NCBI GenBank assembly: GCA_044222245.1
Contig: JBGANQ010000012.1
Span: 11,844-75,843, forward strand
Origin: Polyangia bacterium
GTDB lineage: Bacteria > Myxococcota_A > Polyangia > Palsa-1104 > JAEUJZ01
DNA length: 64,000 bases
Direction: 5' to 3'
Of this stretch, positions 13,408 to 26,240 are shown in pieces. Every line of letters starts with the position of its first letter. The stretch's first letter is position 1. The notes under the pieces are model-generated. The model did not search any database. It was not told where the DNA came from and saw only the letters and a program-made list of their open reading frames with translations. The position numbers were made by a program, and so were the translations under genes.

Positions 13408-13815
13408 TCAGTCAGTGCTGCCGTCGGACTCTGGGGCTTCCTGGGCCCCTTGCAGCTCGACCGTAAGCTGCCGCAGCGATTGACCGAGCGCGCGCATCGA
13501 AGACGCGGTAGTCCGCTGCCAGCTCAGGTTGACGTTATAGACAAGATGAACCCAGATTCCCCGGCTGCAGGCGGCCTTGATGAACATCAGAATCGGCGAT
13601 ACAGAAGAAGAGTTCATGAAGGTGAGGCCGCGGAAGTCCAGCACCAGCCGGCGCTCGCGCAGCTCTGGCAGCACCCCTCTCAGCGTCGGTCCAAGCGTCT
13701 CTGAAGGGTTGCGAAAGTCACACTCGCCGCTCCAGTTCAGCGTGTAACGCTTGTCGGTGGAGACGCTGTGGATGGTCAGCCTGTCGCTTGCAAACAGTTC
13801 CACGCCGGCCTTCAT
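13408..13815 (-). CDS. SiaC-family (DUF1987) regulatory phosphoprotein-like
   Basis: 135 aa. WSGECDFRNPSETLGPT and LDFRGLTFMNSSSVSPILMFI resemble, from my memory of Pseudomonas SiaC, GDSYPENSYELFGQV and LRLLYLNTSSIKAMMDIL. The start overlaps the upstream stop by 4 nt (ATGA at 13812-13815). Confidence 0.7.
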   Translation of the reverse strand: MKAGVELFASDRLTIHSVSTDKRYTLNWSGECDFRNPSETLGPTLRGVLPELRERRLVLDFRGLTFMNSSSVSPILMFIKAACSRGIWVHLVYNVNLSWQRTTASSMRALGQSLRQLTVELQGAQEAPESDGSTD

Positions 13816-14279
13816 AGTATCCGCCTCCGCGCAGTCAGCTCGAGGATTTGCTCCCCGTAACTATAGTCCAAATCGAACTTCCCTTCGTGACTGATCCGGT
13901 ACAGCCCGAGCCGCGTTGACTGCGTGGGGTTGTTCATCAGCTCCTGCAGTCGCGCGACATATAGCTGCTCGCTCCTCCCTGCCGTCTTGGTCTGCTCGAT
14001 GATCTGCTGCACCGCCTCCAGGAGCCGCAGGTCGTTGAGTCCGTTAGATACCTGTATCTGAATGTGCTCCGCCGTAGTCTTAAAGCGGAACTGCGCCCAC
14101 TGCATCGCCGGGATCGAGGTGCCATACTTGATCGCGTTCTCGACCAGCTCCGAGGCGACCATGACCGCCGCCGAGCGTAGCTCCTCGGAGTACTCGGCCA
14201 GGGCCGCTGTCACCTGCTGACGGACCATGCGGACATACTCCCAGGCGATCGGGATGTTGATCTGGATGTTCTGGTTCAT
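13812..14279 (-). CDS. SiaB-like / anti-sigma-type (GHKL, HATPase_c_2-like) small Ser/Thr protein kinase
   Basis: I trimmed the track ORF to ATG 14279 (MNQNIQINIP...), preceded by GAGGAG. It has an N-box-like SELVENAIKYG and a G-box-like STRLGLYRISHEG. It sits between a PP2C domain and a DUF1987 gene. Confidence 0.65.
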   Translation of the reverse strand: MNQNIQINIPIAWEYVRMVRQQVTAALAEYSEELRSAAVMVASELVENAIKYGTSIPAMQWAQFRFKTTAEHIQIQVSNGLNDLRLLEAVQQIIEQTKTAGRSEQLYVARLQELMNNPTQSTRLGLYRISHEGKFDLDYSYGEQILELTARRRIL

Positions 14280-14337
14280 CAGGCCACTGGCTCCTCTTGT
14301 TGCATCGCGGCACCGAACACCTCTTGACCGCTCGGCG

Positions 14338-17300
14338 CTAGGCGTCCAGGTGCCGCAGCGCAACCACCGAGACATCGTCGCTGACTAGCCGGTCGGTGGT
14401 GAGCTGCAGGACGCGCTGGGTCAGCTCTTGGCTGCTCACCTGCTGCCGGCACGCCTGCGCGAAGACCTCGGCCACCGGCTCAAGCTCCAGCAAGGCCCGG
14501 TCGGTCCGGCGGCGCGACTCGGTGAGCCCGTCGGTGTAAAGGAGCAGGCAGTCACCAGGTCCGAACTCGACGCTGTCATCGGTGTTCAGGCCGGCGATTT
14601 CCTCCATGATTCCCAGCCAGCTCCCCTGGCTCTGTAGTTCCTGCACCGCTTGGCTCGCTCGGCGGAATAGTAGCACGCTTTGGTGCAGCCCGGCGTACAC
14701 CACCTTGCCGTCGCCGATGCACAGCGCGGCCATGGTCATGTACTGGTCCTTGCCGATAAGCTGGAGGTTACTCCACAGCGCCCGGTTCACCAGGGTCAGT
14801 AGCATCGCCGGGGTAAGGGGCGTCTTGCTGTCGGCGGTGGCAGCGACGTCGGCGAAGCTGTGCACCAGCGCCCGCACGGCCGTCTGCACCATCATCATGA
14901 TGAGCCCGGCGCTCACCCCGTGACCGGAGACATCGCCGATGAGCACCCACAGCTTCCCGCCCGCTTCCAGCGCGTCATAGTAGTCGCCGCCCACCTCATC
15001 GGCCGGCTTCATCTGGCCGGCGAACTCGTACCGGCCGGCGAAGGTCTGCGCCGGCGGCAGCAGCACGCACTGAATCTTGCGCGCCAGGTCCATCTCGGCC
15101 CACAGCTCGCGCAGGGCCTTGTGCAGGGCGTCGGTGCGCTCGGTGACCTTGGCCTCAAGGCCCGCGTTGGCGGCCTGCAGGTCAGCATACAGACGGGCGT
15201 TCTGCAGCGAGATCGCGCTCTGCGCAGCCAGCACGCCGAGCAGGGCGCCGCGCGTGGCGGGAAAAGCGTGCGCCGCCTCGTGCTCCAGGTACAGCACTCC
15301 GTCCAGCCGCCCCTGATGGACAAGGGGGATCGCCAGCACCGACCGCGCCGCGCCGGCGCCCAGGTGCGGGTCTTGCGCGAAACGGCTGTCGGCGGCGGCG
15401 TTGCTGAGCACCACCGACTCGCGCGTACGCACCACATACTGCACGACCGCGCCGGCGACCGGGTGGTCCGCCGCCAGGGGCTCGGCCAGGCCCGAGCGAA
15501 CCTGCTCACCGGACAGCAGCGCCACCACGCACAGCGAGTCAGGTCCGCCCAGTAGCAGCGCCGCGCGCTGGGCGCCGGCGTTCTCCATGACCAGGTGCAT
15601 CAGCTGCGCGACCACCCGCTCGGCGTTCAGCTCACCGGCCAGCGCCTGGGCGGCGCGCACGGTGGTGTTCAGATCGAGCGAGGCACTGGTGCCCGAGTCG
15701 GTAATCCGCGTCGTGCTGGTGGTGGTGGTGCGCGCCTCTTGAGTCAGCGCCGCCGCCCGCGGTGTCGGCAGCAGCGGCGGATACTTCTGTTCCAGGAAGG
15801 CGACCAGGGAGCTCGCCCCCCAGCGCAGGTAGGCCTCGCGGGCCTCGCCCAGGTACAGCAGCCCCAGGCGCTCGCGCCCGGCGTCCAGATGGAACTCGCC
15901 GCACAGCTGCGCCGCCAGCGCCTCAATCTGGAAGAAGCCGTGCTGGCGCGCCAGGCTGATGGCCTGCTCGTACTGCGCCATCGCCGCATCGGTCTGCCCG
16001 TGGAGGCGCGCCTGCTCGGCCTCTAGCAGGTGCAGCTTGTGCTGGAAGTTCTCGGCGCAGCCCTGGGCGAAGTAGCGAAAGCGCGCGAGCGCGTGCGCCA
16101 ACAGCTCGCGCAGCTCGCCCTGTTGCTCGCCGGTCATCGCTGGCCGCAGGCACCTGGCCGCGGCCAGCCCGCGCCACAGCGGGATGTCGGTCACCGGGAC
16201 GTTGGCCAAGAGCAGCGGTCGGAACTGCTCGGCCTCGCCCGCTCGCGACAGCGCTCGCTCATAGGCGCCCAGGGCGAGAAACAGGTGAGCTTCAAAGATC
16301 CGCGCCCCTTCGGCGGCGATGCCTGCCCCTTCGGCAGCCAGCGTGCGCGAGCCGCGGCTCAGCTGATCATCGCAGAGAAATCGCTGGCCGCCCCCCGCGG
16401 TGGTGAGCGTCTCATGATACGAGGCCACAAGCTCAAAGCCGTATCTGCCGATCGCATCGCCGGTGCGCCGGATAAGCGGCCAGTGCTGCTTCCAGAACGC
16501 GTGCACCGCAGCCAGGGACTGGCCACGCCACGCCAGGCAGTAGTTCAGGTGGGCGGCGAGCGCCCAGCTCATTCCCTGAAAAGACCCGCTCTTTAGCGCG
16601 ACCTGGAACGCCTGCTCGTAAAAGGGCGCCGCTTCGGGTGCCGGCCGGAAATAGAAGTGGATGGTGCCCTGGTAATATAGACACTCGGAGAGAAACGCTG
16701 GGGAGGTGCGCTCCAGGGCGCGCGCCGCCGGCGCCACCCAGGCAGCCGCGCGGCGGTACATCCCGGTCAGCAGCGACCACAGGCTGGTGCAGCTGCAGAT
16801 AAGCAGCGGCGCCACCTGCGTGAGCGCCCCCCGGCGCCGCAGCTCGGCCAGGGCGCGCACGGTGCTAAGGCCCATCAGCAGCGGCCGATTGCCAAAGCCG
16901 GCGCAGATGATCATCTGCATCTGCAGGGCGTCGAGGATGAGGTGCTCGGGCGCGGGGTCGGCGGGCAGGTGATCGAGCGCCGCGGGGTTACCGGCGAACC
17001 ACTCGTCCAGCTCGACGGCCTCGCTGGCGAGCCGCTCGCCGCAGGCGGCTTCGGTGGCCGGATACTGCCAGCCGACCTCGGCCAGCGCCCGCAGGCCCAG
17101 CTCTACGCCGCGCGCGAAGGCGCCGGCAGCCACGCAGCTGCGCACGCCCACCTCCTGCGCCGCCAGCCGCGGCAGCGCCGGCAGCGGCAGGTCGAGCAGC
17201 GCCTGCACACGCAGCTCGACATCGTCGAACTCGCGCAGCAGGTAGGCCGCCTCCAGCCGCTCCAGGGCCAGCTCTACCGCCAGCGCCGGCGCCTCGCGCC

Positions 17301-19266
17301 ACACCGCGGGCCCGAGCAGAACCTGCGCCGCCTCGACCAGGGTGGCCATAAGGACATGCGAGCTGGCCGCCTTGGCCCGCCGCGCCGCCTCCAGGTTGAG
17401 CCGCGCGAGCTCGCCGCGCTCGTCCCCCGCCGGCAGCTGTTCCGCCCCCAGGTTGAGGTGCCGCACCAGCGTCAAAAGCTGCTGGGTGGTTCCGCCCCCG
17501 GCGCGATACTGCGACAGCAGCCGGCGCCCGATCTCCAGGTGGGCGCCGACCCGCTGCTCGGCCGAGATCCGCTCATAGCTTGCCTGCTGCACCCGGTCGT
17601 GCAGGAACCGATACTCCGCATCCAGGCCCTCACTGCCCACCCCGAGCAGCGCCTGCGCCGGCCGGTAGGCGCCGTCCACCGGCACCACCAGCTCCTCATG
17701 CAGGGCTGGCCACAGCGCCGCGCTGACCTGCCCGCGGCTCCAGCCGCTCAGTCGCTCCAGCTCGCGCAGCGGAAACTGGTGACCGGCGCAGGCGGCCAGC
17801 CCCAGGATCTGCTGCGTCGCCTCGGGCAGCTCCTGCACCTTGGCGGTGAGCAGGGTGACGACGTTGTCGGTCACTTCCGCTCGCTCGATGGCCGCAAGGT
17901 CGAAGTCCCAGCGCCCGCTGGCGGTGTCGCGCACGACCTGGCGCTGCCGGTGCAGACTGAGCAGCAGCTGCTCCAGGAAGAAGGGATTGCCGCGCGTCTT
18001 GCGCCACAGCACCTGCGCCAGCGGCGCGACCTCTATAGGCTCGCGGGCAAGCGTCCGCGCCAGCCACAGCTGCACCTGCTCGACGCCCAGAGGACCCACT
18101 GCCAGCTGGGTCACGCGCGCGCCGCTGTGCGCGACCGTTTCGCTGAGCTTGCCCAGCGGATGCTCGGGCGTCACCTCGCTGTCGCGATACGCGGCGATGA
18201 GCAGCAGCGAGCTGCGCTCGACATCCGTAAGCAGCGTCTGCAAGATCACCAGCGTCGCGCTGTCGGCCCACTGCAGATCATCCAGGAACATCACCAGCGG
18301 CGCGCTCGGCGCGGTCACCGCGCGCACGAAGTTGAGCCAGGTCAGCTTCAGCCGGTTGAGGATCTGCTCGCCCGGCACCGCCGGCACCGCCGGCAGCGCG
18401 CCCATCACCAGGTCCAGCTCGGGCACCGCGTCGGCGATAAGGCGCGCGTTGTCGCCGACCTCGCTGCGAATGCGCTCCTGCCAGCGCTGCAGCACCGCGG
18501 GCGGGCTGGCCAGCCACTGCCGCAGCAGGCCCCCGAAGGCCTGCGCCAGCGCCGCGTAGGGCGTCGAGCGCGCCAGCTGGTCGTGCTTGCCGGCGACCAG
18601 CACGCCGCGTCCGGTGCGGGCGATGTCCAGATACACGGTGCGCACGAGCGCGGTCTTGCCGATTCCCGAAGGCCCGCCGACCAGCAGCAGCTCCACCGCG
18701 CCCTGCGCCGCCCGGCTGTACGCCGCGGTCACTTCGCGCAGCTCGCGGTCACGGCCGATGAGCAGCTGCGGCAGCCGCAGCCGCGGCGAGTGATCCTGCG
18801 TGCCCAGCGTGAACCCGTGGATCTGACCAGCTGCCCGCCACTGCGCCAGCGCTTGCTCCAGATCCCAGCCGACGCCCCGGGCGGTCTGGTATCTCTGCTC
18901 CGGCTCCTTGGCCAAAAGGCGGGTCAGGATCGCCGCCAGCACCTCGGGCACCTCCGGCCGCAGCGCCGTGATGGCGGGGATCGGGCGGGCCAGGTGGGCG
19001 TAGACCAGCGCCAGCGGGTCGCGCTCCTGAAACGGCCGCTGACCCGTGAGCATCTCGAACAGCGTGACGCCCAGGGAGTACAAATCTGTGCGCGCATCCA
19101 CCGCGCGCGCCGTGCGGCCGGTCTGCTCGGGCGAGATATAGGCCAGCGTGCCCTCCAGCGCCTCGGGGAGGCTGGCCGGAGTCGCTTCCTGGGTCAGCTC
19201 CGAGGCGATGCCGAAATCGACCAGGACCACCCGGCTGCAGGCTTCATCGACCAGGATGTTCTGCGG
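14338..19266 (-). CDS. 3' part (kinase subdomain VIb/VII onward) of an interrupted giant signalling protein: Ser/Thr kinase - AAA/P-loop - helical repeats - GAF - PP2C/SpoIIE phosphatase
   Basis: The frame opens right after a TAG at 19267-19269 with PQNILVDEACSRVVLVDFGIAS..LEGTLAYISPEQTGR..DLYSLGV. The P-loop is LLLVGGPSGIGKT (about 18660). The GAF domain lies at about 15195-15650. The PP2C domain at 14341-15087 has GGDYYD, GDVSGHG and YTDGLTE. The kinase N-lobe, catalytic Lys and HxD are missing here; they lie at 32741-33139. The first in-frame start is GTG 19230. Confidence 0.9.
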   Translation of the reverse strand, partial: PQNILVDEACSRVVLVDFGIASELTQEATPASLPEALEGTLAYISPEQTGRTARAVDARTDLYSLGVTLFEMLTGQRPFQERDPLALVYAHLARPIPAITALRPEVPEVLAAILTRLLAKEPEQRYQTARGVGWDLEQALAQWRAAGQIHGFTLGTQDHSPRLRLPQLLIGRDRELREVTAAYSRAAQGAVELLLVGGPSGIGKTALVRTVYLDIARTGRGVLVAGKHDQLARSTPYAALAQAFGGLLRQWLASPPAVLQRWQERIRSEVGDNARLIADAVPELDLVMGALPAVPAVPGEQILNRLKLTWLNFVRAVTAPSAPLVMFLDDLQWADSATLVILQTLLTDVERSSLLLIAAYRDSEVTPEHPLGKLSETVAHSGARVTQLAVGPLGVEQVQLWLARTLAREPIEVAPLAQVLWRKTRGNPFFLEQLLLSLHRQRQVVRDTASGRWDFDLAAIERAEVTDNVVTLLTAKVQELPEATQQILGLAACAGHQFPLRELERLSGWSRGQVSAALWPALHEELVVPVDGAYRPAQALLGVGSEGLDAEYRFLHDRVQQASYERISAEQRVGAHLEIGRRLLSQYRAGGGTTQQLLTLVRHLNLGAEQLPAGDERGELARLNLEAARRAKAASSHVLMATLVEAAQVLLGPAVWREAPALAVELALERLEAAYLLREFDDVELRVQALLDLPLPALPRLAAQEVGVRSCVAAGAFARGVELGLRALAEVGWQYPATEAACGERLASEAVELDEWFAGNPAALDHLPADPAPEHLILDALQMQMIICAGFGNRPLLMGLSTVRALAELRRRGALTQVAPLLICSCTSLWSLLTGMYRRAAAWVAPAARALERTSPAFLSECLYYQGTIHFYFRPAPEAAPFYEQAFQVALKSGSFQGMSWALAAHLNYCLAWRGQSLAAVHAFWKQHWPLIRRTGDAIGRYGFELVASYHETLTTAGGGQRFLCDDQLSRGSRTLAAEGAGIAAEGARIFEAHLFLALGAYERALSRAGEAEQFRPLLLANVPVTDIPLWRGLAAARCLRPAMTGEQQGELRELLAHALARFRYFAQGCAENFQHKLHLLEAEQARLHGQTDAAMAQYEQAISLARQHGFFQIEALAAQLCGEFHLDAGRERLGLLYLGEAREAYLRWGASSLVAFLEQKYPPLLPTPRAAALTQEARTTTTSTTRITDSGTSASLDLNTTVRAAQALAGELNAERVVAQLMHLVMENAGAQRAALLLGGPDSLCVVALLSGEQVRSGLAEPLAADHPVAGAVVQYVVRTRESVVLSNAAADSRFAQDPHLGAGAARSVLAIPLVHQGRLDGVLYLEHEAAHAFPATRGALLGVLAAQSAISLQNARLYADLQAANAGLEAKVTERTDALHKALRELWAEMDLARKIQCVLLPPAQTFAGRYEFAGQMKPADEVGGDYYDALEAGGKLWVLIGDVSGHGVSAGLIMMMVQTAVRALVHSFADVAATADSKTPLTPAMLLTLVNRALWSNLQLIGKDQYMTMAALCIGDGKVVYAGLHQSVLLFRRASQAVQELQSQGSWLGIMEEIAGLNTDDSVEFGPGDCLLLYTDGLTESRRRTDRALLELEPVAEVFAQACRQQVSSQELTQRVLQLTTDRLVSDDVSVVALRHLDA

Positions 19267-19268
19267 CT
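19262..19268. repeat. Left copy of the 7-bp direct repeat TGCGGCT at the kinase-gene breakpoint
   Basis: The context gttcTGCGGCTaaatg is confirmed by the track translation ..DQDVLRLNVTIERKP. Identical heptamers occur at 25782-25788 and 32739-32745. Confidence 0.8.
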
Positions 19269-19390
19269 AAATGTAACGATCGAGAGAAAACCCTGAGATC
19301 ACGTTCCGCGGCGGGGCAAAGTGCATGCAAATCACGGCGTAGGAACTTTGTTGCGAGCGGGCCGGCGGCCAGCGAAAAGGTCTGCGATGG

Positions 19391-19718
19391 CTAGCGTGAG
19401 GATCGCGCGACGAACGCGACCATCGCGACGTTGAGGAGCGGGTAGGCCAGCGCGGAGGCGAAGTCGGTGGTGTTGACGAGGTTGAGGGTCACGCGCAGCG
19501 GCTGCCCCTGCGGGCTGTTGGGGTCTCCGAGCAGGCTCGCGACCTCGGCCACCGAGCGCGCCAGCTCGAAGCGCAGGATCAATCTCTGCAGCGCCGCCAG
19601 AGGCAGGGCCTGGCTGCGCGCACCCTGGACGCCCATCAGCGCGCCGAGAATCAGGGCAGCAGCGCGGCGAGCAGGACGAGCCCGGCCGGGCTCCACAGCG
19701 GCGTGGATTGTCGGGGCA
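19391..19718 (-). pseudogene. Small membrane-protein gene with an apparent frame break
   Basis: ATG 19718 behind GGAG encodes MPRQSTPLWSPAGLVLLAALLP, then hits TGA. The track ORF 19391..19696 continues in another frame with ..LILGALMGVQG...LAYPLLNVAMVAFVARSSR. Together the two pieces read as one TM-containing protein. Confidence 0.35.
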
Positions 19719-19743
19719 TGGGGGCTCCGTGGGGTCGCAGACT

Positions 19744-20808
19744 TTAGGGCGACAGGACCTCGACCGCCGCTCCAGTGGCCACCACGAGCTGGGTGGCACT
19801 GACTGCCAGGCCGCGCGGCGTGCCGCTAAGGGCAGTCCGCCCAAGGACCCGGAACGTGTCGAGCTGCACCTTGACCAGCTGCGGCGAAGGGCTGCTGCCG
19901 ACTACGTAGGCGGTGGTCCCGGTGGCCGCGACGTGCACCGGTATCACGCCCAGGGCGGCGGCCGAGATGCTGCGCACGATGGGGCTGGTCGCCGGGTTGT
20001 TATCCAGGCGGGTCAAGTCAATGGCCGCCATGCCGTCGGGGTGAGCGGCGACGAGCAGGCTCTGCCCGGGGACGACGGCGCTCTGCACGGCGAAGTTTGC
20101 CGGGGCGGCGCTGCCAGGCGAGCTGAGCACGCGGCTGCTGCCGCTCACCAGCGAGACGCGGTCCAGCGTCGCCCCGGTCGCCATATTGAGCACTGTGATG
20201 CCGTAGGTGTTGCCATCGAAATCGGTCGCCACGTAGGCCCGGGTGCCGTCATCGCTCAGGGTCACATCGGGCTGGCCGGTGCCGAGGTCGCGGGTGAAGC
20301 TCCGGGTGAGCGTAGCGCCGGTGAGCGAGCCGGCGGTGAGCAGCCCCGTGCCACCGGAGACCACGAAACGGCCGCCGCCCGTTGCGATGCCCGAGAAGGG
20401 GCCGACCGGGACGCGCAGGGCGGTCGCGGCGAAGCTAGGGCTTGTCGGGGTGGCGAACGACAGGACATTCAGCGAGCCACTGCCGCCCTGGTTGGAGAAG
20501 TCGGGCCGCGCGCCCGGCGCTACCGCGTCCAGCACGTACACAGTGCTCCCCGCGACCGCGACATCGTGCGCGCGAATCGTATAGGAGACCGCGCTCCCGG
20601 TCTTGAGGTCCAGGACCCCAAGCGAGCTGCCGCGCGCGATATACGCCGTGGAGCCGCTGAGCGCCACGTTGGTGGCGCCCGGAAAGCTGTACGTGCTGGT
20701 AAGCGCCGAAGTGATGTCATCGACGTAGTCGGGCGCAGAGGGATCCGTGGCGGAGCCGCAGCCAAGAACCGGCAGCATGAGGAAACCGAGCCATTTCAAC
20801 GTTTGCAT
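19744..20808 (-). CDS. Lipoprotein, beta-propeller-like repeats (hypothetical)
   Basis: ATG 20808 lies behind TAGGAGG. The lipobox is LMLPVLGCGS. Repeated beta-strand units are present (TAYIARGSSLGVLDL; TVYVLDA; RAYVATDFDGN; TAYVVGS). Confidence 0.8.
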   Translation of the reverse strand: MQTLKWLGFLMLPVLGCGSATDPSAPDYVDDITSALTSTYSFPGATNVALSGSTAYIARGSSLGVLDLKTGSAVSYTIRAHDVAVAGSTVYVLDAVAPGARPDFSNQGGSGSLNVLSFATPTSPSFAATALRVPVGPFSGIATGGGRFVVSGGTGLLTAGSLTGATLTRSFTRDLGTGQPDVTLSDDGTRAYVATDFDGNTYGITVLNMATGATLDRVSLVSGSSRVLSSPGSAAPANFAVQSAVVPGQSLLVAAHPDGMAAIDLTRLDNNPATSPIVRSISAAALGVIPVHVAATGTTAYVVGSSPSPQLVKVQLDTFRVLGRTALSGTPRGLAVSATQLVVATGAAVEVLSP

Positions 20809-20962
20809 GAAGACCTCCTAAAGGAACTCGATGGGTAGGACTCGCGCCAAGGCGCGCGTGCCGCTTTATCACGACTGCGGTCACCCAAGGTGCTTGCAGC
20901 GCGCGCATTGGGGGAAAATTTCGCCTCAGCCGGCCGGCGCGATCGCCTATGCTGCCACTCCA

Positions 20963-21976
20963 ATGCTCACTTCAGCATCTACATTATCTGGCCTACTCGC
21001 TGCCGTCTGCGGGGAGCCGGCGGCCCATCGGCTGCTTGCTGTGGTGCGCGTAGACTCGCGGCTTCTCGAAAATAACTCAGCGGTGGTCAGCCGGGCCGAG
21101 CTCGCCCAGGCCATGAACTTGCTCCTCTTTGATGCGCTGCTCGGCGGCGTGCCCGAAGCCGAGCGCTACGTCCGCGAGGTGGCGGCGGCCGGTGGCCAGG
21201 TGGTGTTCGATCATGGAGCGCTGCGCACCGTCCTTGCGCCGAGCTGCGGCGCGCTCCCTCCGGGCGAGGCGGCGTTTACCCGCTTTCTCCGACCGCTCGG
21301 CTTTCGCTGCACCGGCACCTATCCTCTCACTCGGCTGCAGATGACCGGCCGCGCCTATACTCACGCCGACTTTCCCCAAGACATCGCCCAGTACTTTGTC
21401 AGCGAGCTCCATCCCGAGGCCTTCTCGCCGCCCTTCCAGGCCGCGGTCGCGCGGGTTGTGGCGAGCTCGATCGATCCGCTAGCGCCCGCCGATATCACCC
21501 GCATCGAGCGCCTGGGCCGTGATCACTTTCTGCCGCTCGCGCAGGCGGTCGAGCTCCTGCCCCGGCTCGTGCGCTGCTTCGGCCGTCACCACGAGCTCCC
21601 GGCCGCCGTCGACTATGAGACCCTGCTTGCCGAGTCGGCCGAGATGGCGTGGATCAGCACCGAAGGCAATGCCTTCAACCACGCGACCGACAGGGTGCCC
21701 GACGTCCAGGCGCTGGCCGAGGCGCTGCGGGCGCGCGGCTATCCGATTAAAGACTCGGTCGAGACTTCGAGCAGCGGGCGCGTCCGCCAGACCGCCCTGC
21801 GCGCCGCCATGGTGCGGCGGCCGCTAGAGGGGTCGCCGCCGCGGGAGGTGCCCGGCTCGTTTTATGAGTTCATCTCACGCGATAGCTATACCGATGAAAC
21901 GGGGCAGCGCCAGCTGGATCTGGCCTTCGACGCCGGCAACGCCACCGGCATCTTCAAGATGACCGTCGCGCCGTAA
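20963..21976 (+). CDS. DUF1338 family (HglS/YdcJ-like 2-oxoadipate dioxygenase/decarboxylase)
   Basis: I trimmed to ATG 20963. VFDHGALRTV, YFVSELHPEAF, NAFNHATDRV and FYEFISR match conserved DUF1338 motifs. Confidence 0.8.
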   Translation: MLTSASTLSGLLAAVCGEPAAHRLLAVVRVDSRLLENNSAVVSRAELAQAMNLLLFDALLGGVPEAERYVREVAAAGGQVVFDHGALRTVLAPSCGALPPGEAAFTRFLRPLGFRCTGTYPLTRLQMTGRAYTHADFPQDIAQYFVSELHPEAFSPPFQAAVARVVASSIDPLAPADITRIERLGRDHFLPLAQAVELLPRLVRCFGRHHELPAAVDYETLLAESAEMAWISTEGNAFNHATDRVPDVQALAEALRARGYPIKDSVETSSSGRVRQTALRAAMVRRPLEGSPPREVPGSFYEFISRDSYTDETGQRQLDLAFDAGNATGIFKMTVAP

Positions 21977-22038
21977 CCGGATCGGATGGCCGTCGCGCTG
22001 TAGCCGGGTCGCTGGCGCCGGCCAGGCGGCGACTGCGC

Positions 22039-23007
22039 TCAGGCGCCGGGCTCGGTCTCCGGTTGCGGCCCGCGCGGGCGCGCGCCCCGGCGGACGCCAA
22101 ACGAGAACAGGTCGGGGCGGTGGTAGTGCCCAGCGACATCCAGCGTCATGCTTTCCTCGCGCACACGGGTCAGATCAAGCTCGGCCACTATAAGCTCCGG
22201 GCGCTCCCACACCGGCTCGACAACATAACTCCCATCGGGCGCGATGACGGCGCTGCCGCCGCGCATCAACCAGGACTCGCGACTCTTGACCCGATCGGGA
22301 TGCGGCTCGAGCCCGGGGGGCAGCGCCGCGGCGCGCAGTAATGAGCCGACGGCGAGCACGTAGCAGCGGCTCTCGAAGGCGTAGTGCCGGCTGGCCAGCT
22401 GGTGTCGCTCGTGGACGGTGGGCCATACAGCAACGTGCACATCTTCCCCAGACTCATGCAGGGCGTGGCGAGCCAGCGGCATCCAGTGCTCCCAGCAGAT
22501 GAGGCCCCCCACCCGCACGCCGTCGGCCTCGACGACCCGCAGCCCGTCGGCATCACCGGGCCCCCAGACCAGTCGCTCGGTGTAGGTCGGCATCAGCTTG
22601 CGGTGGTGATTTATGAGCTCGCCGCTGCGGCCGATGGTCAAAAGTGAGTTGTACAGAGTGCCCCGGCCCGGTCCCGCGCCGACGCGCTCGACGACTCCGA
22701 TCACCAGCGTCGCCTGGACCGACCGCGCGACCTCGCGCAGCTCCAGGCCCGACTCGCCGTTTACCTCGATGCTGTTTGCCGCCATCTGCGCGTACGCTGC
22801 CTTGACCGGGGGGTGATCCCACAGCGCGGCGTCGCGACAACAGTCGAGCCATGCGGGGTAGCCGGGAATCCAGGTCTCGGGAAAAGCGATGAGGCGGGCG
22901 CCGCGCGCGGCGGCCTCGGAGGCGTACTTTTGCGTCTGCGCAAGCGCATCGCTGAGGGTGGACGCGACCTCGCCCTGCACCAGGGCAACGGTGATCCGGC
23001 TGCTCAT
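22039..23007 (-). CDS. Nitrilase / carbon-nitrogen hydrolase family
   Basis: I trimmed to ATG 23007 (MSSRITVALVQ). The catalytic triad context is AFPETWIPGYP (Glu), HHRKLMPT (Lys) and GGLICWEHWMP (Cys). Confidence 0.9.
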   Translation of the reverse strand: MSSRITVALVQGEVASTLSDALAQTQKYASEAAARGARLIAFPETWIPGYPAWLDCCRDAALWDHPPVKAAYAQMAANSIEVNGESGLELREVARSVQATLVIGVVERVGAGPGRGTLYNSLLTIGRSGELINHHRKLMPTYTERLVWGPGDADGLRVVEADGVRVGGLICWEHWMPLARHALHESGEDVHVAVWPTVHERHQLASRHYAFESRCYVLAVGSLLRAAALPPGLEPHPDRVKSRESWLMRGGSAVIAPDGSYVVEPVWERPELIVAELDLTRVREESMTLDVAGHYHRPDLFSFGVRRGARPRGPQPETEPGA

Positions 23008-23131
23008 TTCCGGACAATGCGCTTGCGAGCGGCCCAGTGTCAACGGCTCGCTGCCGCCGGCGCCGAGGCCCGGCCAGCCCGCGGCCCCGCGTGGAGCATT
23101 CAGCCAGCCGAGCGTGTAGGATTGCAGGGTC

Positions 23132-24415
23132 ATGACCACTGAGCGCAAGATTCCCGATGGGCGGCTTGGCCGACTGAGAAGACTGGCCGGGCTGGGGGCG
23201 CGGACCGGAGCGAGCCTGCTGCTCAACCGGGACGCTGGGGCAGCGGCGGCGCAGCAGGCGGCCGAGGTCCTGGGTACCCTGCGCGGGCTGGCCGCCAAGG
23301 TCGGCCAGATGGCCAGCTACATCGACGGCATGGTCCCCGACTCGCACCGCGAGGCGTATCAGACCGCCCTGCGCGGGCTGCGGGCCGCGGCGCCGACCTC
23401 GTCCCCGCAGCAGATCCGCCAGACCGTGGAAACAGAGCTGGCGGCGCCCCTGGACCAGCGGTTCTGCGAGTGGGATGACACACCGCTGGCCAGCGCCTCG
23501 ATCGGGCAGGTCCACCGGGCGCGCCTGCTCGACGGCCGCGAGGTGGCGGTCAAGGTCCAGCACCCCGGCATCGCCGCCGCGGTGGCAAGTGATCTGGAAA
23601 ACGCCGGGATGATCCAAGGTCTGGTCGGGATGCTCGGTCCGCGCCAGCTCAACTCCAAGGCCGTCTTCGCCGAGGTCAAGCAGCGCTTCGAGGAGGAGCT
23701 TGACTACACCCTGGAAGCAGAGCGGCAGATGTCCTTTCGCCGCCTGCACAGCGGCGACCCGCACATAGACATTCCCGAGGTGATCCCCGCCTGCTCTGCG
23801 CAGCGCGTCCTCACCACGCTGCTGGCGCGCGGGGCGAGCCTGGAAGAGGCCGCCGCGGCGCCGCGGGCCGAGCGCCGCCAGCACGCCGAGACGCTGTGGC
23901 GCTTCGTCTTCAAGGGGAACCTCGTAGGCGGCATGTTCAACGCCGACCCACATCCGGGAAACTACCTGTTCCAGCCGGCGGGGCGGATCGTCTTTCTCGA
24001 CTTCGGCTGCGTCCAGCCGATCGCCGGCGAACACCTGCAGCAGTCGCGCCGGGCTCACAAGGCGGCGCTGCGCGGCGACCAGGCGGCGTTTACCGCGGCG
24101 ATGACCCAGCTTTTGGGGACCAGCGGCGGCGCTTACGAGCGGGCCATGCTCGCCTACCTGCGCCGCTGCTTCGAGCCGCTGTTCAGCTCTCCCTACTGCA
24201 TAAATGCCGGCTACGTAAAGAGTCTGGTCGATGCCACGATGGACATGAAGCGCCTGGTCCTGACCAAGGACAGCGGCTTTGTCTCACCGCAAGAGGGCCT
24301 GCTGTTCATGAACCGCCTGCAGTTCGGGTTTTATTCCGTGCTCTCGCGCCTGGATGTCGAGGCGGACTATGCAGCCGTCGAGAACCGCTTCCTCGGCGAG
24401 GCCGGCCTGGCCTAG
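23132..24415 (+). CDS. ABC1/UbiB (AarF) atypical kinase family protein
   Basis: PLASASIGQVHRARLLDGREVAVKVQHPGI, EELDYTLEA and FNADPHPGNYLF..IVFLDFG are ABC1-family signatures. Confidence 0.9.
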   Translation: MTTERKIPDGRLGRLRRLAGLGARTGASLLLNRDAGAAAAQQAAEVLGTLRGLAAKVGQMASYIDGMVPDSHREAYQTALRGLRAAAPTSSPQQIRQTVETELAAPLDQRFCEWDDTPLASASIGQVHRARLLDGREVAVKVQHPGIAAAVASDLENAGMIQGLVGMLGPRQLNSKAVFAEVKQRFEEELDYTLEAERQMSFRRLHSGDPHIDIPEVIPACSAQRVLTTLLARGASLEEAAAAPRAERRQHAETLWRFVFKGNLVGGMFNADPHPGNYLFQPAGRIVFLDFGCVQPIAGEHLQQSRRAHKAALRGDQAAFTAAMTQLLGTSGGAYERAMLAYLRRCFEPLFSSPYCINAGYVKSLVDATMDMKRLVLTKDSGFVSPQEGLLFMNRLQFGFYSVLSRLDVEADYAAVENRFLGEAGLA

Positions 24416-24535
24416 CAGGCTGCGGCAAAGCGTAGCGAGCGGCCCGAGCTCGGGTTCGGGCGCGCGGAGCAGCCTGTTGGCTGTGAGCACGGCCGGGCCC
24501 GAAATCGGGTCGCGCAGTAGTTTTGCCTCAGCCTG

Positions 24536-25156
24536 CTAAGGGCGCGCGGTGGCCGCCGCGTACAGGGCGCGCAGGGCATCGCGCAGCTCGTCGTTTTCGA
24601 CCCGGGCGATGGTCGTCATCACCTCGAGGTCCGGCTTGGGCACCGGCCGCTTCTTGGTGGGAGCGCGGCGGGCCTTGGCGGTCCAGGCCTTGTAGTCCGG
24701 CAGATCTTTGATATTGCCGACGGCGAACTTGAAGCGCTTGATCTCTTTTATCGGGGAGGCCTTGGCGCGCTCGTAGGAGTCGCGATACTTTTCGGCGATG
24801 TGGCGCAGCTCCTCGTTGACCTGGGCGAGGACGATATCCTTGACATAGTGAAAGGTCGCCACCGTCGCTGAGCTGTCCATGCGCAGGTGCAGCGTGTCCT
24901 CCCACAGCTTCTCCGCGCGGACCATCGGCTCCAGGTGCGGCGCGCACTGGTGGCAGACCGCGGCGAAGACCTGCTGCGCCAGGCAGCCGCTCAGCTGCTC
25001 CCAGCTCTTGAGTCGCACCGCCGCCGCGACGATGAGCGCCCAGCCGCGAAACGGCCGGGCGAGCGGCCGCTTGTACGACCGCCGCCGGATCACCGTGGCC
25101 CCCGGCGGAATCAGCGGCTTCTCAGCTTGCGGAGCGGCAGGTGGCTTGGGCGGCAT
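24536..25156 (-). CDS. Hypothetical protein (possibly DUF721/DciA-like; tentative)
   Basis: 206-aa track ORF with coding-like composition, 17 nt downstream of the preceding same-strand gene. WEQLSG..LAQQ...LHLRMDSSATVATFHYVKDIVLAQVNEEL loosely resembles DUF721. Confidence 0.55.
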   Translation of the reverse strand: MPPKPPAAPQAEKPLIPPGATVIRRRSYKRPLARPFRGWALIVAAAVRLKSWEQLSGCLAQQVFAAVCHQCAPHLEPMVRAEKLWEDTLHLRMDSSATVATFHYVKDIVLAQVNEELRHIAEKYRDSYERAKASPIKEIKRFKFAVGNIKDLPDYKAWTAKARRAPTKKRPVPKPDLEVMTTIARVENDELRDALRALYAAATARP

Positions 25157-25173
25157 GGCGGTAGACCCGCATG

Positions 25174-25644: not shown

Positions 25645-25663
25645 GTGCTGATCAAATCAGCAC
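25645..25663. promoter_or_regulatory. Perfect palindrome GTGCTGAT-caa-ATCAGCAC abutting the start codon of the 25174..25644 gene (candidate operator)
   Basis: The 8-bp arms are at 25645-25652 and 25656-25663, in a locally AT-richer stretch immediately 5' of the ATG (25644, minus strand). Confidence 0.25.
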
Positions 25664-25779
25664 TTATTGTACACCAAAACAACGACAGCACCGCCGCACT
25701 TGGCCCAGGCCAAGCAGCCCTTCCCGAACCTTCCCGCGCGCTGCCGGGTGCCCCGCCGCACAGAAGGGCCGGTCGGCCT

Positions 25780-26121: not shown

Positions 26122-26240
26122 GAGATCACCGCCTAAGGTTGAAGTGTCCAATCATCATCGGCTTCCCTTTGGGGAATGTCCAGTCGAAGCGCACCGCGCG
26201 CACCTTTTCCGGACCGGCCTGTCCCGCCGGCGGCGGCGCT

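What the first reader, a model, noticed from the sequence alone, without database searches (positions are those of the whole stretch)
13408..19266. SiaABC-type partner-switching module hard-wired to a giant kinase/AAA/GAF protein, with no diguanylate cyclase output
What the sequence shows:
- The giant protein ends in a PP2C/SpoIIE phosphatase domain (14341-15087: GGDYYD, GDVSGHG, YTDGLTE).
- 58 nt downstream lies a small GHKL-type kinase resembling SiaB (ELVENAIKYG; STRLGLYRISHEG).
- That gene overlaps by ATGA a DUF1987/SiaC-like gene (GECDFRNPSETLGP; LTFMNSSSVSPILMF).

Comparison with the known system:
- In the Pseudomonas SiaABCD system, the PP2C SiaA and the kinase SiaB toggle phosphorylation of SiaC. 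SiaC then activates the DGC SiaD.
- Here the phosphatase is the C-terminal domain of a Ser/Thr kinase-P-loop-GAF scaffold.
- The predicted acceptor position is Ser-rich (N68-S69-S70-S71; codon 13609-13611) rather than Thr.
- No GGDEF gene follows. The next same-strand gene is a di-haem beta-propeller lipoprotein.

The target of the SiaC-like protein is therefore unknown. Because the kinase N-lobe is severed (see the split-gene finding), the surviving ORF would be a kinase-dead AAA-GAF-PP2C protein.
Basis: partly seen in the sequence, partly recalled or inferred. Interest (0 to 1): 0.7.

Follow-up and report, generated by a model that had tools for sequence, protein, structure and literature searches.

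The report
Partner-switch trio on giant sensor phosphatase
A myxobacterial (Polyangia-like) locus encodes a giant sensor protein ending in a PP2C phosphatase, followed by a small kinase-like protein and a small phospho-acceptor protein; this is a recognisable bacterial partner-switching module from an uncharacterised branch that sits between RsbW/RsbV and SiaB/SiaC, and its target is still unknown.

Summary

**What the two small proteins are**
- They are not SiaB/SiaC orthologues. Neither matches the SiaB or SiaC (DUF1987) models, even at E<=10.
- Their best matches are NCBIfam slr1658 and slr1659 superfamily regulators, then HATPase_c_2 and STAS/anti-sigma antagonist.
- AlphaFold models match SpoIIAB/RsbW and SpoIIAA/RsbV best by E-value. 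SiaB and SiaC are about equally close by TM-score.
- More distant members of the same families do reach the SiaB and SiaC models. The pair is therefore a sister branch of both systems.

**How conserved the trio is**
- The trio of giant Pkinase-AAA_16-GAF-PP2C protein, GHKL protein and STAS protein is conserved in Polyangia genomes.
- The di-haem propeller gene downstream is a lineage-specific insertion.
- No diguanylate cyclase lies in the window. GGDEF genes do flank distant family members.

**The truncated kinase**
- The missing N-lobe is real. It is shared with a lineage 10-14% divergent at the protein level.
- The truncated gene is under purifying selection (dN/dS 0.20).

**Verdict:** a partner-switching module of a catalogued but unstudied family, with unknown output.

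**More surprising side observation:** paralogous giant kinases have been split independently at the same catalytic-loop codon (K-P|Q-N).

The parts
14338..19230 (-). Giant sensor protein, 1630 aa as an ORF. Domain order: Hanks-kinase C-lobe remnant, AAA_16 (STAND-type P-loop), about 800 aa helical middle region, GAF, PP2C/SpoIIE.
   Evidence: Pfam and NCBIfam. An identical 1630-aa gene occurs in independent metagenome contigs L002 and L006. dN/dS against L007/L008 is 0.20.
18883..19266 (-). Kinase C-lobe remnant. It starts at P-Q-N-I-L-V-D of the catalytic loop. The HRD Asp, the Gly-loop and the VAIK Lys are absent.
   Evidence: Pkinase profile positions 139-254 only. PADLOC kinase profiles cover positions 149-276/292. 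dN/dS is 0.13, the lowest of all segments.
19267..19269 (-). In-frame TAG at the position of the catalytic-loop Lys codon. Relatives L007-L009 have AAG here.
18196..18762 (-). AAA_16 P-loop NTPase domain, with Walker A GPSGIGKT and Walker B LVMFLDD.
   Evidence: Pfam PF13191, E 3.9e-36. Sequence read.
15205..15624 (-). GAF domain, a putative small-ligand sensor.
   Evidence: Pfam PF01590/PF13185/PF13492.
14350..14961 (-). PP2C/SpoIIE phosphatase domain with all metal-binding Asp motifs. The GGDYYD motif lies just upstream of the Pfam match, at about 14974-14991.
   Evidence: Pfam PF07228, E 6e-30. Motif conservation across 32 homologues.
14280..14337 (-). 58-nt spacer with a GAGGAG ribosome-binding site. 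No terminator-like site on the minus strand.
13812..14279 (-). Protein A, 155 aa. GHKL (Bergerat-fold) anti-sigma-kinase-like protein of the slr1658 superfamily. The N-box S43-E44-L-V-E-N48-A-I-K-Y-G is intact. In the G1 box the Asp is replaced by N79. The G2 remnant is L124-G125-L126.
   Evidence: NCBIfam NF047703, E 1.5e-10. AF2 pLDDT 92. Foldseek: SpoIIAB 2e-6, RsbW 5e-6, SiaB TM 0.72. Family invariants.
13408..13815 (-). Protein B, 135 aa. STAS-fold phospho-acceptor protein of the slr1659 superfamily. Its start overlaps A's stop (ATGA).
   Evidence: NCBIfam NF047705 3.9e-6, ant_ant_sig 7.8e-5, Pfam STAS 5e-4. Profile against PDB: TM1442 3.5e-7 and SpoIIAA 3e-5. AF2 pLDDT 85. Foldseek: SpoIIAA 5.5e-6, SiaC 3e-3.
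13609..13611 (-). Codon of Ser69, the predicted phospho-acceptor. N68-S69 is invariant in all family members.
   Evidence: It aligns with D57-S58 of SpoIIAA and with N67-T68 of SiaC (PMC7647112). It lies at the N-terminus of helix 2 in the model. Invariance shown.
32642..33139 (-). Detached kinase N-lobe ORF, 165 aa. It ends ...GVMHKDLKP and then continues into unrelated sequence.
   Evidence: tblastn gives 40% identity to the N-lobes of full-length homologues. Pfam Pkinase. PADLOC kinase profile positions 9-140/292. Identical ORF in 8 metagenome contigs.
19275..32744 (.). 13,470-nt segment separating the two kinase halves; the coordinates given are approximate. It carries ordinary-looking genes and is bounded by copies of (A)AGCCGCA and by subterminal inverted repeats.

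Best explanation
**What it is.** The locus encodes a three-part partner-switching module of the RsbU/RsbW/RsbV kind. It is built from an uncharacterised branch, the slr1658/slr1659 superfamily, which is a sister branch of SiaB/SiaC.

**Proposed mechanism**
1. The giant protein is the input. Its GAF domain (ligand) and its AAA_16/STAND region (nucleotide-dependent oligomerisation) control the C-terminal PP2C domain.
2. Protein A is a small GHKL serine kinase. It phosphorylates protein B on Ser69.
3. The PP2C domain removes that phosphate.
4. The phosphorylation state of B decides whether B is bound to A or is free. One of the two proteins then binds and controls a target that is not encoded next to the module.

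**This lineage.** The Hanks-kinase N-lobe was separated from the gene by an old 13.5-kb insertion. The protein therefore works as a kinase-inactive AAA-GAF-PP2C sensor phosphatase that keeps its C-lobe.

**Shown here**
- Domain content and intact catalytic motifs of the PP2C domain.
- Folds of A and B.
- Conservation of the acceptor Ser and of the N-box of A.
- Conserved gene linkage.
- Purifying selection on all three genes.

**Inferred, not shown**
- Phosphotransfer itself.
- The direction of partner binding.
- The identity of the target.
For: - **Domains and motifs:**
- **Translational coupling:** 58-nt spacer and ATGA overlap.
- **Fold of A:** AF2 pLDDT 92. Foldseek probability 1.0 to SpoIIAB, RsbW, UsfX and SiaB. 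E44 and N48 of the N-box are invariant. By profile offset, E44 corresponds to SiaB E61, the predicted catalytic Glu (PMC7647112).
- **Fold of B:** the B-family profile aligns FMNSS to FMDSS of SpoIIAA and to TM1442. N68-S69 is invariant in 25 sequences sharing 17-34% identity with B. S69 caps helix 2, as S58 does in SpoIIAA-type antagonists and T68 does in SiaC (PMC7647112).
- **Linkage:** a giant Pkinase-AAA_16-GAF-PP2C gene lies immediately upstream of A-B in L017, L018, L020, L023, L024, L026, L038 and in a JGI contig. A PP2C gene lies within 10 kb in at least 34 of 54 loci.
- **Selection:** dN/dS is 0.20 for the giant gene, 0.12 for A and 0.24 for B against a lineage with dS about 0.4.
- **Family size:** 1572 cluster representatives at 50% identity for A.
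Against: - The window proteins score far below the NCBIfam cut-offs for slr1658 and slr1659 (41 and 27 bits against 100), so family placement rests on best-hit logic.
- A lacks the G1-box Asp, which is invariant in classical GHKL ATPases. It has N79, and more distant members have Ser or Asn. ATP binding is therefore not assured.
- No target is identified. No sigma factor or GGDEF gene lies within 10 kb.
- Translation of the truncated giant gene has to start at or after the TAG at 19267-19269. The first candidate start is GTG at 19230, which has no clear ribosome-binding site.
- Some genomes keep A-B without an adjacent PP2C gene (L011, L013).
Confidence: 0.7

Rival explanations
1. It is a true SiaABCD-type system. 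B, like SiaC, binds and activates a diguanylate cyclase that happens to be encoded elsewhere in the genome.
For: - N68-S69-S70 of B matches N67-T68-S69 of SiaC, which is the SiaD-contact and phosphorylation motif (PMC8457831, PMC7647112).
- 16 of 25 family members hit Pfam SiaC and 6 of 25 hit SiaB_fam_kinase.
- GGDEF genes lie within 10 kb in 11 of 54 family loci. They are directly adjacent in L027, L028, L047, L050, L058 and L060.
- In L046 a kinase-AAA-GAF-GGDEF giant gene follows the module.
Against: - The window A and B give no hit to the SiaB or SiaC models, even at E<=10.
- No GGDEF or EAL domain lies in the 64-kb window, nor next to the module in any close relative.
- The acceptor is Ser, not Thr.
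- The phosphatase has no SiaA-like membrane/HAMP region; NF038263 scores 42 bits against a cut-off of 700.
Confidence: 0.1
2. It is a classical anti-sigma / anti-anti-sigma pair. A sequesters an alternative sigma factor encoded elsewhere, and B releases it when dephosphorylated.
For: - By E-value, the best structural and profile matches of A and B are SpoIIAB/RsbW and SpoIIAA/RsbV/TM1442.
- JGI annotators named homologues anti-sigma regulatory factor and anti-anti-sigma factor.
Against: - No sigma-factor gene was seen among the Pfam-annotated neighbours of any of about 20 annotated loci.
- Classical RsbW/SpoIIAB sequences align only to the N-terminal half of A (profile positions up to 83), whereas SiaB aligns along the whole length.
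- Many partner switches in Gram-negative bacteria have non-sigma outputs (discussion in PMC7647112).
Confidence: 0.15
3. A is a non-catalytic GHKL pseudokinase that only binds. B is phosphorylated by a Hanks kinase, ancestrally the giant protein's own kinase domain. The giant protein would then have been a combined kinase and phosphatase for B, and the split lineage would keep B permanently dephosphorylated.
For: - The G1-box Asp is missing throughout the A family.
- Hanks kinase domains are repeatedly linked to the module: giant fusions, and Pkinase-STAS fusion genes directly upstream of A in L031, L033, L039 and L042.
Against: - The N-box Glu and Asn and the LGL remnant of the G2 box are invariant. 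Such conservation is not expected in a pure scaffold.
- SiaB, the closest full-length structural match, is an experimentally active kinase described as unusual (PMC7278518, PMC7647112).
- Most family loci, for example those from Spirochaetota, have no Hanks kinase nearby.
Confidence: 0.1
4. The locus is a decaying remnant. The giant gene was inactivated by the insertion, and the module is no longer functional.
For: - The N-lobe is missing and there is an in-frame TAG at the junction.
- A frameshifted small ORF lies just upstream at 19332-19740.
Against: - A 4.9-kb ORF is intact in two lineages that share the truncation and differ by dS about 0.4. dN/dS is 0.20 overall and 0.13 in the C-lobe remnant.
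- Identical genes occur in many independent metagenomes.
- The PP2C catalytic motifs are intact.
Confidence: 0.03
5. It is an anti-phage defence system built on a STAND NTPase.
For: - An AAA_16/STAND-like NTPase sits in a very large multidomain protein.
- PADLOC kinase families (PD-T4-6, mad6, MkoA) hit the kinase halves.
Against: - The PADLOC hits cover only the generic kinase domain.
- A and B hit nothing in PADLOC.
- The giant family is a large chromosomal paralogue family of Polyangia. Its output domains are interchangeable with histidine-kinase/receiver modules, which is typical of signal transduction.
Confidence: 0.02

Closest known systems
slr1658 / slr1659 superfamily regulators (NCBIfam NF047703 / NF047705; Synechocystis slr1658-slr1659; partly Pfam DUF6272)
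   Same: - They are the best profile matches for A (1.5e-10) and for B (3.9e-6).
- All 25 diverse homologues of each protein hit these models (best 9e-18 and 7e-16).
- Both are small paired genes: a GHKL-like protein plus a STAS-like protein.
   Different: - The window proteins score far below the curated cut-offs (41 and 27 bits against 100).
- In the papers held here, slr1658 and slr1659 appear only in gene lists; neither is named in a title or abstract, and I did not open the papers. Membership therefore supplies no known mechanism.
SiaABCD of Pseudomonas aeruginosa (PP2C SiaA, kinase SiaB, DUF1987 SiaC, DGC SiaD)
   Same: - The logic is the same: a PP2C phosphatase, a small atypical GHKL kinase, and a STAS-like phosphoprotein with an N-[ST]-S-S acceptor motif at the start of helix 2.
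- SiaB is the best full-length structural match to A (TM 0.72). SiaC matches B at TM 0.60.
- More distant family members reach the SiaB and SiaC HMMs.
   Different: - The window proteins themselves give no HMM hit.
- The acceptor is Ser, not Thr.
- The phosphatase is the C-terminal domain of a cytoplasmic 1630-aa STAND-like scaffold, not of a membrane HAMP protein.
- There is no adjacent diguanylate cyclase.
RsbU/RsbP-RsbW-RsbV and SpoIIE-SpoIIAB-SpoIIAA partner switches of Bacillus; the Rv1364c fusion protein of M. tuberculosis
   Same: - Both folds match: Foldseek E is 2e-6 to 5e-6 with probability 1.0.
- The B profile aligns FMNSS to FMDSS, including the phosphorylated Ser.
- The A profile matches the RsbW-like domain of Rv1364c at 7.7e-6.
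- The sensor-domain-plus-PP2C input logic is the same.
   Different: - The G1-box Asp of the kinase is replaced.
- The region between G1 and G2 is longer and contains two helices.
- The motif has N instead of D before the acceptor Ser.
- No sigma factor is linked to the module.
Polyangia giant Pkinase-AAA_16-GAF-output sensor proteins (annotated as AAA family ATPase or histidine kinase in Sorangium and Polyangium)
   Same: - The scaffold is the same, with 58-62% identity over the first ~84% of the protein.
- 6702 homologues were found at E<=1e-20.
   Different: - The cultured-strain versions among the 120 best hits end in HisKA-HATPase-REC. The PP2C-ending version came mainly from metagenome assemblies.
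- The window copy lacks the kinase N-lobe.

Membership tests
SiaABCD system | STAS-like protein is a member of Pfam PF09345 (SiaC/DUF1987) | tested here: not met
   The window B protein gives no PF09345 hit at E<=10. 16 of 25 distant homologues do hit it, best 1.9e-6.
SiaABCD system | Kinase is a member of NCBIfam NF038262 (SiaB family protein kinase) | tested here: not met
   The window A protein gives no hit at E<=10. 6 of 25 distant homologues hit it, best 1.6e-10. Foldseek to SiaB chain 6kko_A gives TM 0.72 and E 1.6e-4.
SiaABCD system | Threonine acceptor (T68) in an N-T-S-S motif | tested here: not met
   B has N68-S69-S70-S71. Ser is invariant at this position across the family. The position itself is equivalent (PMC7647112).
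SiaABCD system | Adjacent GGDEF diguanylate cyclase (SiaD) as the target | tested here: not met
   phmmer with GGDEF and EAL queries finds nothing in the window. None is present next to the module in close relatives.
SiaABCD system | Membrane-anchored HAMP-PP2C phosphatase (SiaA, NF038263) | tested here: not met
   NF038263 scores 42 bits against a cut-off of 700, and only the PP2C part aligns.
Generic PP2C / GHKL-kinase / STAS partner-switching system | PP2C (SpoIIE/RsbU-type) domain with metal-binding Asp motifs | tested here: met
   PF07228, E 6e-30. D1416, D1419, D1433, D1567 and D1618/1619 are conserved.
Generic PP2C / GHKL-kinase / STAS partner-switching system | Small GHKL (Bergerat-fold) anti-sigma-type kinase with N-box Glu and Asn | tested here: met
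   AF2 pLDDT 92. Foldseek probability 1.0 to SpoIIAB, RsbW and SiaB. E44 and N48 are invariant.
Generic PP2C / GHKL-kinase / STAS partner-switching system | G1-box DxGxG (adenine-binding Asp) in the kinase | tested here: not met
   N79 aligns with the SpoIIAB G1 Asp. No Asp occurs at this position anywhere in the family.
Generic PP2C / GHKL-kinase / STAS partner-switching system | STAS-fold antagonist with a conserved Ser/Thr at the N-terminus of helix 2 | tested here: met
Generic PP2C / GHKL-kinase / STAS partner-switching system | Genes for the three activities are linked and co-oriented | tested here: met
   58-nt spacer and ATGA overlap. The linkage is conserved in other genomes.
Generic PP2C / GHKL-kinase / STAS partner-switching system | Reversible phosphorylation of the STAS protein and phosphorylation-dependent partner exchange | not testable with these tools
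   This requires biochemistry.
slr1658 / slr1659 superfamily | Scores above the curated cut-offs of NF047703 and NF047705 | tested here: inconclusive
   These are the best hits, but at 40.8 and 27.1 bits against a cut-off of 100. All 25 homologues of each protein also hit them.
Polyangia giant Pkinase-AAA_16-GAF-output sensors | Complete Hanks kinase domain at the N-terminus | tested here: not met
   Only Pkinase profile positions 139-254 are present. The N-lobe is a separate ORF 13.5 kb upstream.
Polyangia giant Pkinase-AAA_16-GAF-output sensors | AAA_16, long helical region and GAF scaffold in the same order, with high identity | tested here: met
   58-62% identity to Sorangium and Polyangium proteins over 84% of the length.

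The most novel reading that the evidence does not exclude
The missing N-lobe is not an accident of this genome. Giant kinase genes of this family have been interrupted repeatedly and independently at exactly the same catalytic-loop position (HKD-L-K-P | Q-N), each time by kilobases of unrelated DNA.

**Features of the interruptions**
- Each is flanked by a copy of AAGCCGCA.
- In the window, and partly in L078, they carry inverted repeats near both ends.
- Both halves survive as ORFs, and the C-terminal product is under purifying selection.

**Most novel reading not excluded**
A site-specific element or recombination system targets the conserved kinase motif. It converts kinase-plus-phosphatase sensors into phosphatase-only sensors. 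This may be reversible by excision, as with the nifD and skin elements of differentiating bacteria, or the two halves may reassemble in trans. Either way it would reset the partner switch.
Probability: 0.2. Interest if true: 0.8.

Novelty: new variant of a known kind. Interest (0 to 1): 0.42.

Why it matters
**Partner-switching modules**
- These modules are a general way for bacteria to turn a signal into a protein-protein interaction.
- Outside Firmicutes their outputs are diverse, and most are unknown.
- This locus places the uncharacterised slr1658/slr1659 branch between the RsbW/RsbV and SiaB/SiaC systems. The A family alone has about 1,500 clusters at 50% identity.
- In Polyangia, the input phosphatase of this branch is fused to the same giant kinase-STAND-GAF scaffold that elsewhere carries histidine-kinase or GGDEF outputs.
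- That gives a concrete, testable entry point into what these very large myxobacterial sensor proteins do.

**Split kinases**
- The repeated splitting of these kinases at one codon would be of wider interest if it reflects a site-specific process. It would be a new way of remodelling signalling proteins.

Tried and rejected
- **Direct HMM assignment to SiaB or SiaC.** No hit for the window proteins, even at E<=10.
- **Single-sequence PDB searches with A and B.** Only noise (DARPins) or marginal hits. Profiles were needed.
- **Recovering SiaB/SiaC alignments** by searching the PDB with the most SiaC-like family members (from L065). This failed.
- **The EMBO J SiaABCD paper** is not held, so SiaB's nucleotide-binding residues could not be compared directly.
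- **The di-haem propeller gene as the output.** Rejected: it is absent between B and the convergent ADH gene in L007-L010.
- **The truncation as an assembly artefact.** Rejected: an identical junction occurs in independent metagenome contigs, and the junction is shared with a divergent lineage.
- **Pseudogene decay.** Rejected by dN/dS.
- **Defence-system reading.** Only generic kinase hits in PADLOC.
- **Recombinase or transposase inside the 13.5-kb segment.** None found. There is only a weak DciA-like hit.
- **Metagenome scan for the conserved right-end sequence of the L078/L079 interruptions.** 0 matches.
- **Single-linkage clustering of neighbouring ORFs** to find a conserved target. It was too noisy in high-GC DNA to give more than the 468-aa methyltransferase-like gene of the distant clade.

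Full report
**1. Observation**

The region is about 70% G+C, and all relevant genes are on the minus strand.

The ORF at 14338-19230 encodes 1630 aa. Pfam gives four domains:
- Pkinase, aa 3-116, covering only profile positions 139-254.
- AAA_16, aa 157-345, E 4e-36.
- GAF, aa 1203-1342.
- SpoIIE/PP2C, aa 1424-1627, E 6e-30.

The four PP2C metal-binding motifs are GGD1416YYD1419, GD1433VSGHG, YTD1567G and SD1618D1619VS. All are present and conserved in 32 PP2C-type homologues.

- The giant gene ends with TAG at 14338-14340.
- After a 58-nt spacer with a GAGGAG ribosome-binding site, gene A starts at 14279 and ends at 13812 (155 aa).
- A's stop overlaps the start of gene B in ATGA. B runs from 13815 to 13408 (135 aa).

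The next same-strand gene (10734-13265) is a lipoprotein with propeller repeats and two CxxCH motifs.

**2. What the two small proteins are**

Neither protein hits the SiaB model (NF038262) or the SiaC/DUF1987 model (PF09345), even at E<=10.

| Protein | Best NCBIfam hit | Other hits |
|---|---|---|
| A | slr1658_superfam, 1.5e-10 | Pfam HATPase_c_2, 1e-3 |
| B | slr1659_superfam, 3.9e-6 | anti-sigma-factor antagonist 7.8e-5; Pfam STAS 5e-4 |

Both NCBIfam hits are far below the curated cut-offs.

Profiles built from close homologues (alignments A1 and A2) sharpen this:
- The B profile matches TM1442 (3.5e-7) and SpoIIAA (3e-5). FMNSS of B aligns to FMDSS of SpoIIAA.
- The A profile matches the RsbW-like domain of Rv1364c.

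AlphaFold models built from these alignments are confident, with pLDDT 92 for A and 85 for B.
- For A, Foldseek ranks SpoIIAB, RsbW and UsfX first by E-value (2e-6 to 2e-5). SiaB (6kko_A) has the highest TM-score, 0.72, over the full length.
- For B, SpoIIAA, TM1442 and RsbV come first (5e-6 to 1e-4, TM about 0.6). SiaC follows at 3e-3 with TM 0.60.

I then collected 54 genome loci that encode relatives of A and built diverse alignments (A4 and A5). In these, sequences share 22-41% (A4) and 17-34% (A5) identity with the window proteins.

| Model | Members hitting (of 25) | Best E-value |
|---|---|---|
| slr1658 (A4) / slr1659 (A5) superfamily | 25 of 25 each | 9e-18 / 7e-16 |
| Pfam SiaC (A5) | 16 | 1.9e-6 |
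| STAS (A5) | 11 | 1.1e-4 |
| SiaB_fam_kinase (A4) | 6 | 1.6e-10 |
| DUF6272 (A4) | 11 | 1.9e-11 |

The diverse B profile reaches RsbV (4.5e-5) and SiaC (7e-5) with similar strength. The diverse A profile aligns to classical RsbW/SpoIIAB only over its N-terminal half, but to SiaB over its whole length.

The pair therefore belongs to a branch of the GHKL-kinase/STAS superfamily that NCBI has catalogued (slr1658/slr1659). In the papers held here, those two names appear only in gene lists; neither is in a title or abstract. The branch sits between the classical anti-sigma pairs and SiaB/SiaC. It is not small: 1572 cluster representatives at 50% identity match the A profile at E<=1e-3.

**3. Functional residues**

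*Protein B.* N68 and S69 are invariant across the diverse family.
- S69 aligns with the phosphorylated Ser58 of SpoIIAA.
- By motif, it also aligns with T68 of SiaC, whose phospho-peptide is LLYLNTSSIK (PMC7647112).
- S69 caps helix 2 in the model. The SiaC paper gives this as the location shared by T68 and by S58 of an anti-sigma antagonist.

*Protein A.*
- The N-box S-E44-L-V-E-N48-A-I-K-Y-G is invariant.
- By profile offset, E44 corresponds to SiaB E61, the predicted catalytic Glu (PMC7647112).
- The G1-box Asp is replaced by N79. More distant members have Ser or Asn at this position.
- Only L-G125-L of the G2 box remains.

SiaB is an experimentally active kinase that its authors call unusual (PMC7278518). 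I therefore consider kinase activity of A likely but unproven.

**4. Conserved context**

*Same strain.* A protein identical to A occurs on contigs from many metagenomes in the same arrangement, including the same 1630-aa giant gene (L002, L006).

*Second lineage.* In a lineage where A is 90% identical (L007-L010), the order is giant gene, A, B. B is then followed directly by a convergent alcohol dehydrogenase gene, with no propeller gene. The di-haem gene is therefore a lineage-specific insertion and not a partner.

*More distant Polyangia.* Full-length Pkinase-AAA_16-GAF-PP2C proteins of about 1770 aa sit immediately upstream of A-B where A is about 40% identical. These are L020, L023, L024, L026 and a JGI contig; contig-truncated copies occur in L017, L018 and L038. 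The fusion of the phosphatase to the giant scaffold, and its linkage to A-B, are therefore old.

*Other arrangements seen:*
- A Pkinase-STAS fusion gene upstream of A, with a separate PP2C gene downstream (L031, L033, L039, L042).
- KaiC-like, KaiB and a hybrid histidine kinase upstream (L013).
- In Spirochaetota, Desulfobacterota and related groups, an operon of A, B, a 468-aa methyltransferase-like gene and a 465-aa PP2C gene (15 loci). In L050 and L060 a PAS-GGDEF-EAL gene follows. In L046 a kinase-AAA_16-GAF-GGDEF giant gene follows.

GGDEF genes lie within 10 kb in 11 of 54 loci. In the window's own clade there is none, and the window contains no GGDEF, EAL or second PP2C gene. No sigma-factor gene appears among the annotated neighbours.

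**5. The giant protein**

It belongs to a very large paralogue family of Polyangia, with 6702 hits at E<=1e-20. The shared scaffold ends either in HisKA-HATPase-REC or in PP2C. The cultured-strain hits (Sorangium, Polyangium) are of the first kind; the PP2C kind came mainly from metagenome assemblies.

Over the shared scaffold, the window protein is closer to a histidine-kinase-type Sorangium protein (62% identity) than to any other PP2C-type protein (54% or less). Output domains have therefore been exchanged on a common sensor.

**6. The missing N-lobe**

Kinase homology starts at P-Q-N-I-L-V-D (19266), directly after an in-frame TAG. The N-lobe is a separate 165-aa ORF at 32642-33139 that ends ...GVMHKDLKP. 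It is 40% identical to the N-lobes of full-length homologues. The two halves cover complementary parts of the kinase profiles: positions 9-140 and 149-276 of 292.

Between them lie 13,470 nt of ordinary-looking genes.

The junction is shared with the L007-L009 lineage. There the Lys codon is still AAG, and the ORF reads through 49 unrelated upstream codons.

Against that lineage (dS about 0.4), dN/dS values are as follows:

| Gene or segment | dN/dS |
|---|---|
| Truncated giant gene, whole | 0.20 |
| C-lobe remnant | 0.13 |
| A | 0.12 |
| B | 0.24 |

The surviving protein is therefore functional. It cannot be a kinase on its own. It is best described as a sensor phosphatase that keeps the C-lobe for some structural or docking role.

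**7. Mechanism proposed**

- *Input.* The giant protein senses through its GAF and STAND/AAA_16 parts and controls its PP2C domain.
- *Switch.* A phosphorylates B on Ser69, and the PP2C domain dephosphorylates it.
- *Output.* The phosphorylation state of B sets the A-B association. This frees A or B to act on a target that is not linked to the module.

A second genome supports a convergent-input picture. The MAG GCA_964460115.1 carries at least three PP2C-type giant paralogues with no adjacent A-B (L077-L079). I found one A-B pair from it, next to the KaiC-like genes (L013). Several sensor phosphatases may therefore feed one switch, as RsbU and RsbP both feed RsbV in Bacillus. That analogy rests on established knowledge of Bacillus; applying it here is inference.

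The target, the direction of binding and the phosphotransfer itself are not shown. Rivals are listed separately: an unlinked diguanylate cyclase, an unlinked sigma factor, and a pseudokinase A with a Hanks kinase as the real kinase.

**8. Side observation that may matter more than the module**

Several other PP2C-type giant proteins also begin at exactly the same point:
- P0079 starts MGNNSLHIQPQNILVDE.
- P0128 reads ...SSANSQPQNILFEE.
- P0154, P0066 and P0088 start a few residues later.

Their closest relatives are full-length:
- P0079 is 67% identical to the full-length P0069.
- P0128 is 59% identical to the full-length P0135.
- The window protein is 62% identical to the full-length P0067.

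The different truncated proteins share only 44-54% identity with one another. In a neighbour-joining tree without support values they are scattered among full-length proteins.

In L077 and L078 a short N-lobe ORF ends ...HKD[IV]KP followed by H (AAG CCG CAT), as in the window. It lies 3-5 kb upstream of a C-piece that begins ...AG CCG CAA AAC, with unrelated genes in between.

Repeats near the ends:
- In the window, the segment has inverted repeats in register near both ends: CGAGAGA at 12-18 nt from each end, and TCCGC[A/G]GCGGGGC at 36-48 nt. The second block is conserved in L007-L009.
- L078 shows ATCCCGTCTGA on one side and TCAGACGGGAAAT on the other (read).

I found no recombinase inside the window segment. 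L007 has a phage-type integrase 3.5 kb upstream.

This looks like repeated site-specific interruption at a conserved kinase motif. I could not establish its mechanism.

**9. Novelty and score**

The module is a new variant of a known kind: a partner switch whose phosphatase sits on a giant STAND-like scaffold, built from a catalogued but unstudied family. It is not a SiaABC system and it is not categorically new. Interest is moderate, at 0.42. The recurrent kinase split deserves its own follow-up.

Noticed in passing
window 32642-33139 (-) and 19266-19275; segment about 19275-32744: The Hanks kinase is split at HKDLKP|QNILVD. The N-lobe survives as a 165-aa ORF 13,470 nt upstream of the C-lobe. 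Both junctions carry (A)AGCCGCA (CTCAAGCCGCA in relatives). The segment has in-register subterminal inverted repeats: CGAGAGA at 12-18 nt and TCCGC[A/G]GCGGGGC at 36-48 nt from each end.
   Followed up: partly
L077 4309-4722 and 10001-15097; L078 6533-6898 and 10001-14926; L079 5334-10247 (all from MAG GCA_964460115.1); proteins P0079, P0128, P0154, P0066, P0088: Other paralogous giant PP2C proteins are interrupted at exactly the same catalytic-loop codon. N-lobe ORFs end AAG CCG CAT and C-pieces start AG CCG CAA AAC, with 3-5 kb of unrelated genes between. The truncated forms are scattered among full-length relatives in an NJ tree and in pairwise identities, which suggests independent site-specific events. 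L078 and L079 share about 150-190 nt (77-81% identity) just upstream of the C-piece junction.
   Followed up: partly
window 19267-19269: The catalytic-loop Lys codon at the junction is TAG in the window and in L002, but AAG in L007-L009. In those relatives the ORF reads 49 codons further upstream. The two lineages must therefore start translation of the truncated protein differently.
   Followed up: yes
window 10734-13265 (-): The di-haem propeller lipoprotein gene is a lineage-specific insertion between gene B and the convergent alcohol dehydrogenase gene. It is absent in L007-L010.
   Followed up: yes
window 9025-9543 (-): A small protein (123 aa as called in L001) has a coiled-coil-like N-terminus and only the C-terminal half of a STAS domain (Pfam STAS 1.3e-6, profile positions 48-94). 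It is present in the window lineage and absent in L007. Any relation to the module is unknown.
   Followed up: partly
window 19332-19740 (-): Between the 354-aa lipoprotein gene and the giant gene lies a short membrane-protein-like reading frame that appears frameshifted (MPRQSTPLWSPAGLVLLAALLP* and then another frame). JGI called it as 76-aa and 33-aa genes in L002.
   Followed up: no
L007 180-4898; window 24539-25222 (-): In L007 the truncated giant gene is preceded by a phage-type integrase and a tandem duplication of a 246-aa plus 237-aa gene pair. The 246-aa protein (weak DciA-like hit) has an 85% identical orthologue inside the window's 13.5-kb segment.
   Followed up: partly
L046-L060, L068 (e.g. 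L050 10001-16972): Distant family members form an operon of the GHKL protein, the STAS protein, a 468-aa methyltransferase-like protein and a 465-aa PP2C protein (15 loci). In L050 and L060 a PAS-GGDEF-EAL protein follows. In L046 a kinase-AAA_16-GAF-GGDEF giant protein follows.
   Followed up: partly
L031 8637-9947, L033 8621-9928, L039, L042: In these Myxococcaceae and Polyangiales loci, a ~437-aa protein with a Hanks kinase domain fused to a STAS-like domain lies directly upstream of the A homologue. A separate PP2C protein lies downstream of B.
   Followed up: partly
L013 2880-8166: In MAG GCA_964460115.1 the A-B pair follows a KaiC-like ATPase, KaiB and a PAS hybrid histidine kinase, with no adjacent PP2C gene.
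   Followed up: no
(P0067 and related proteins): The window's scaffold is closer to histidine-kinase-ending Sorangium proteins (62% identity) than to other PP2C-ending proteins (54% or less). This implies exchange of the C-terminal output module on a shared giant sensor scaffold.
   Followed up: partly
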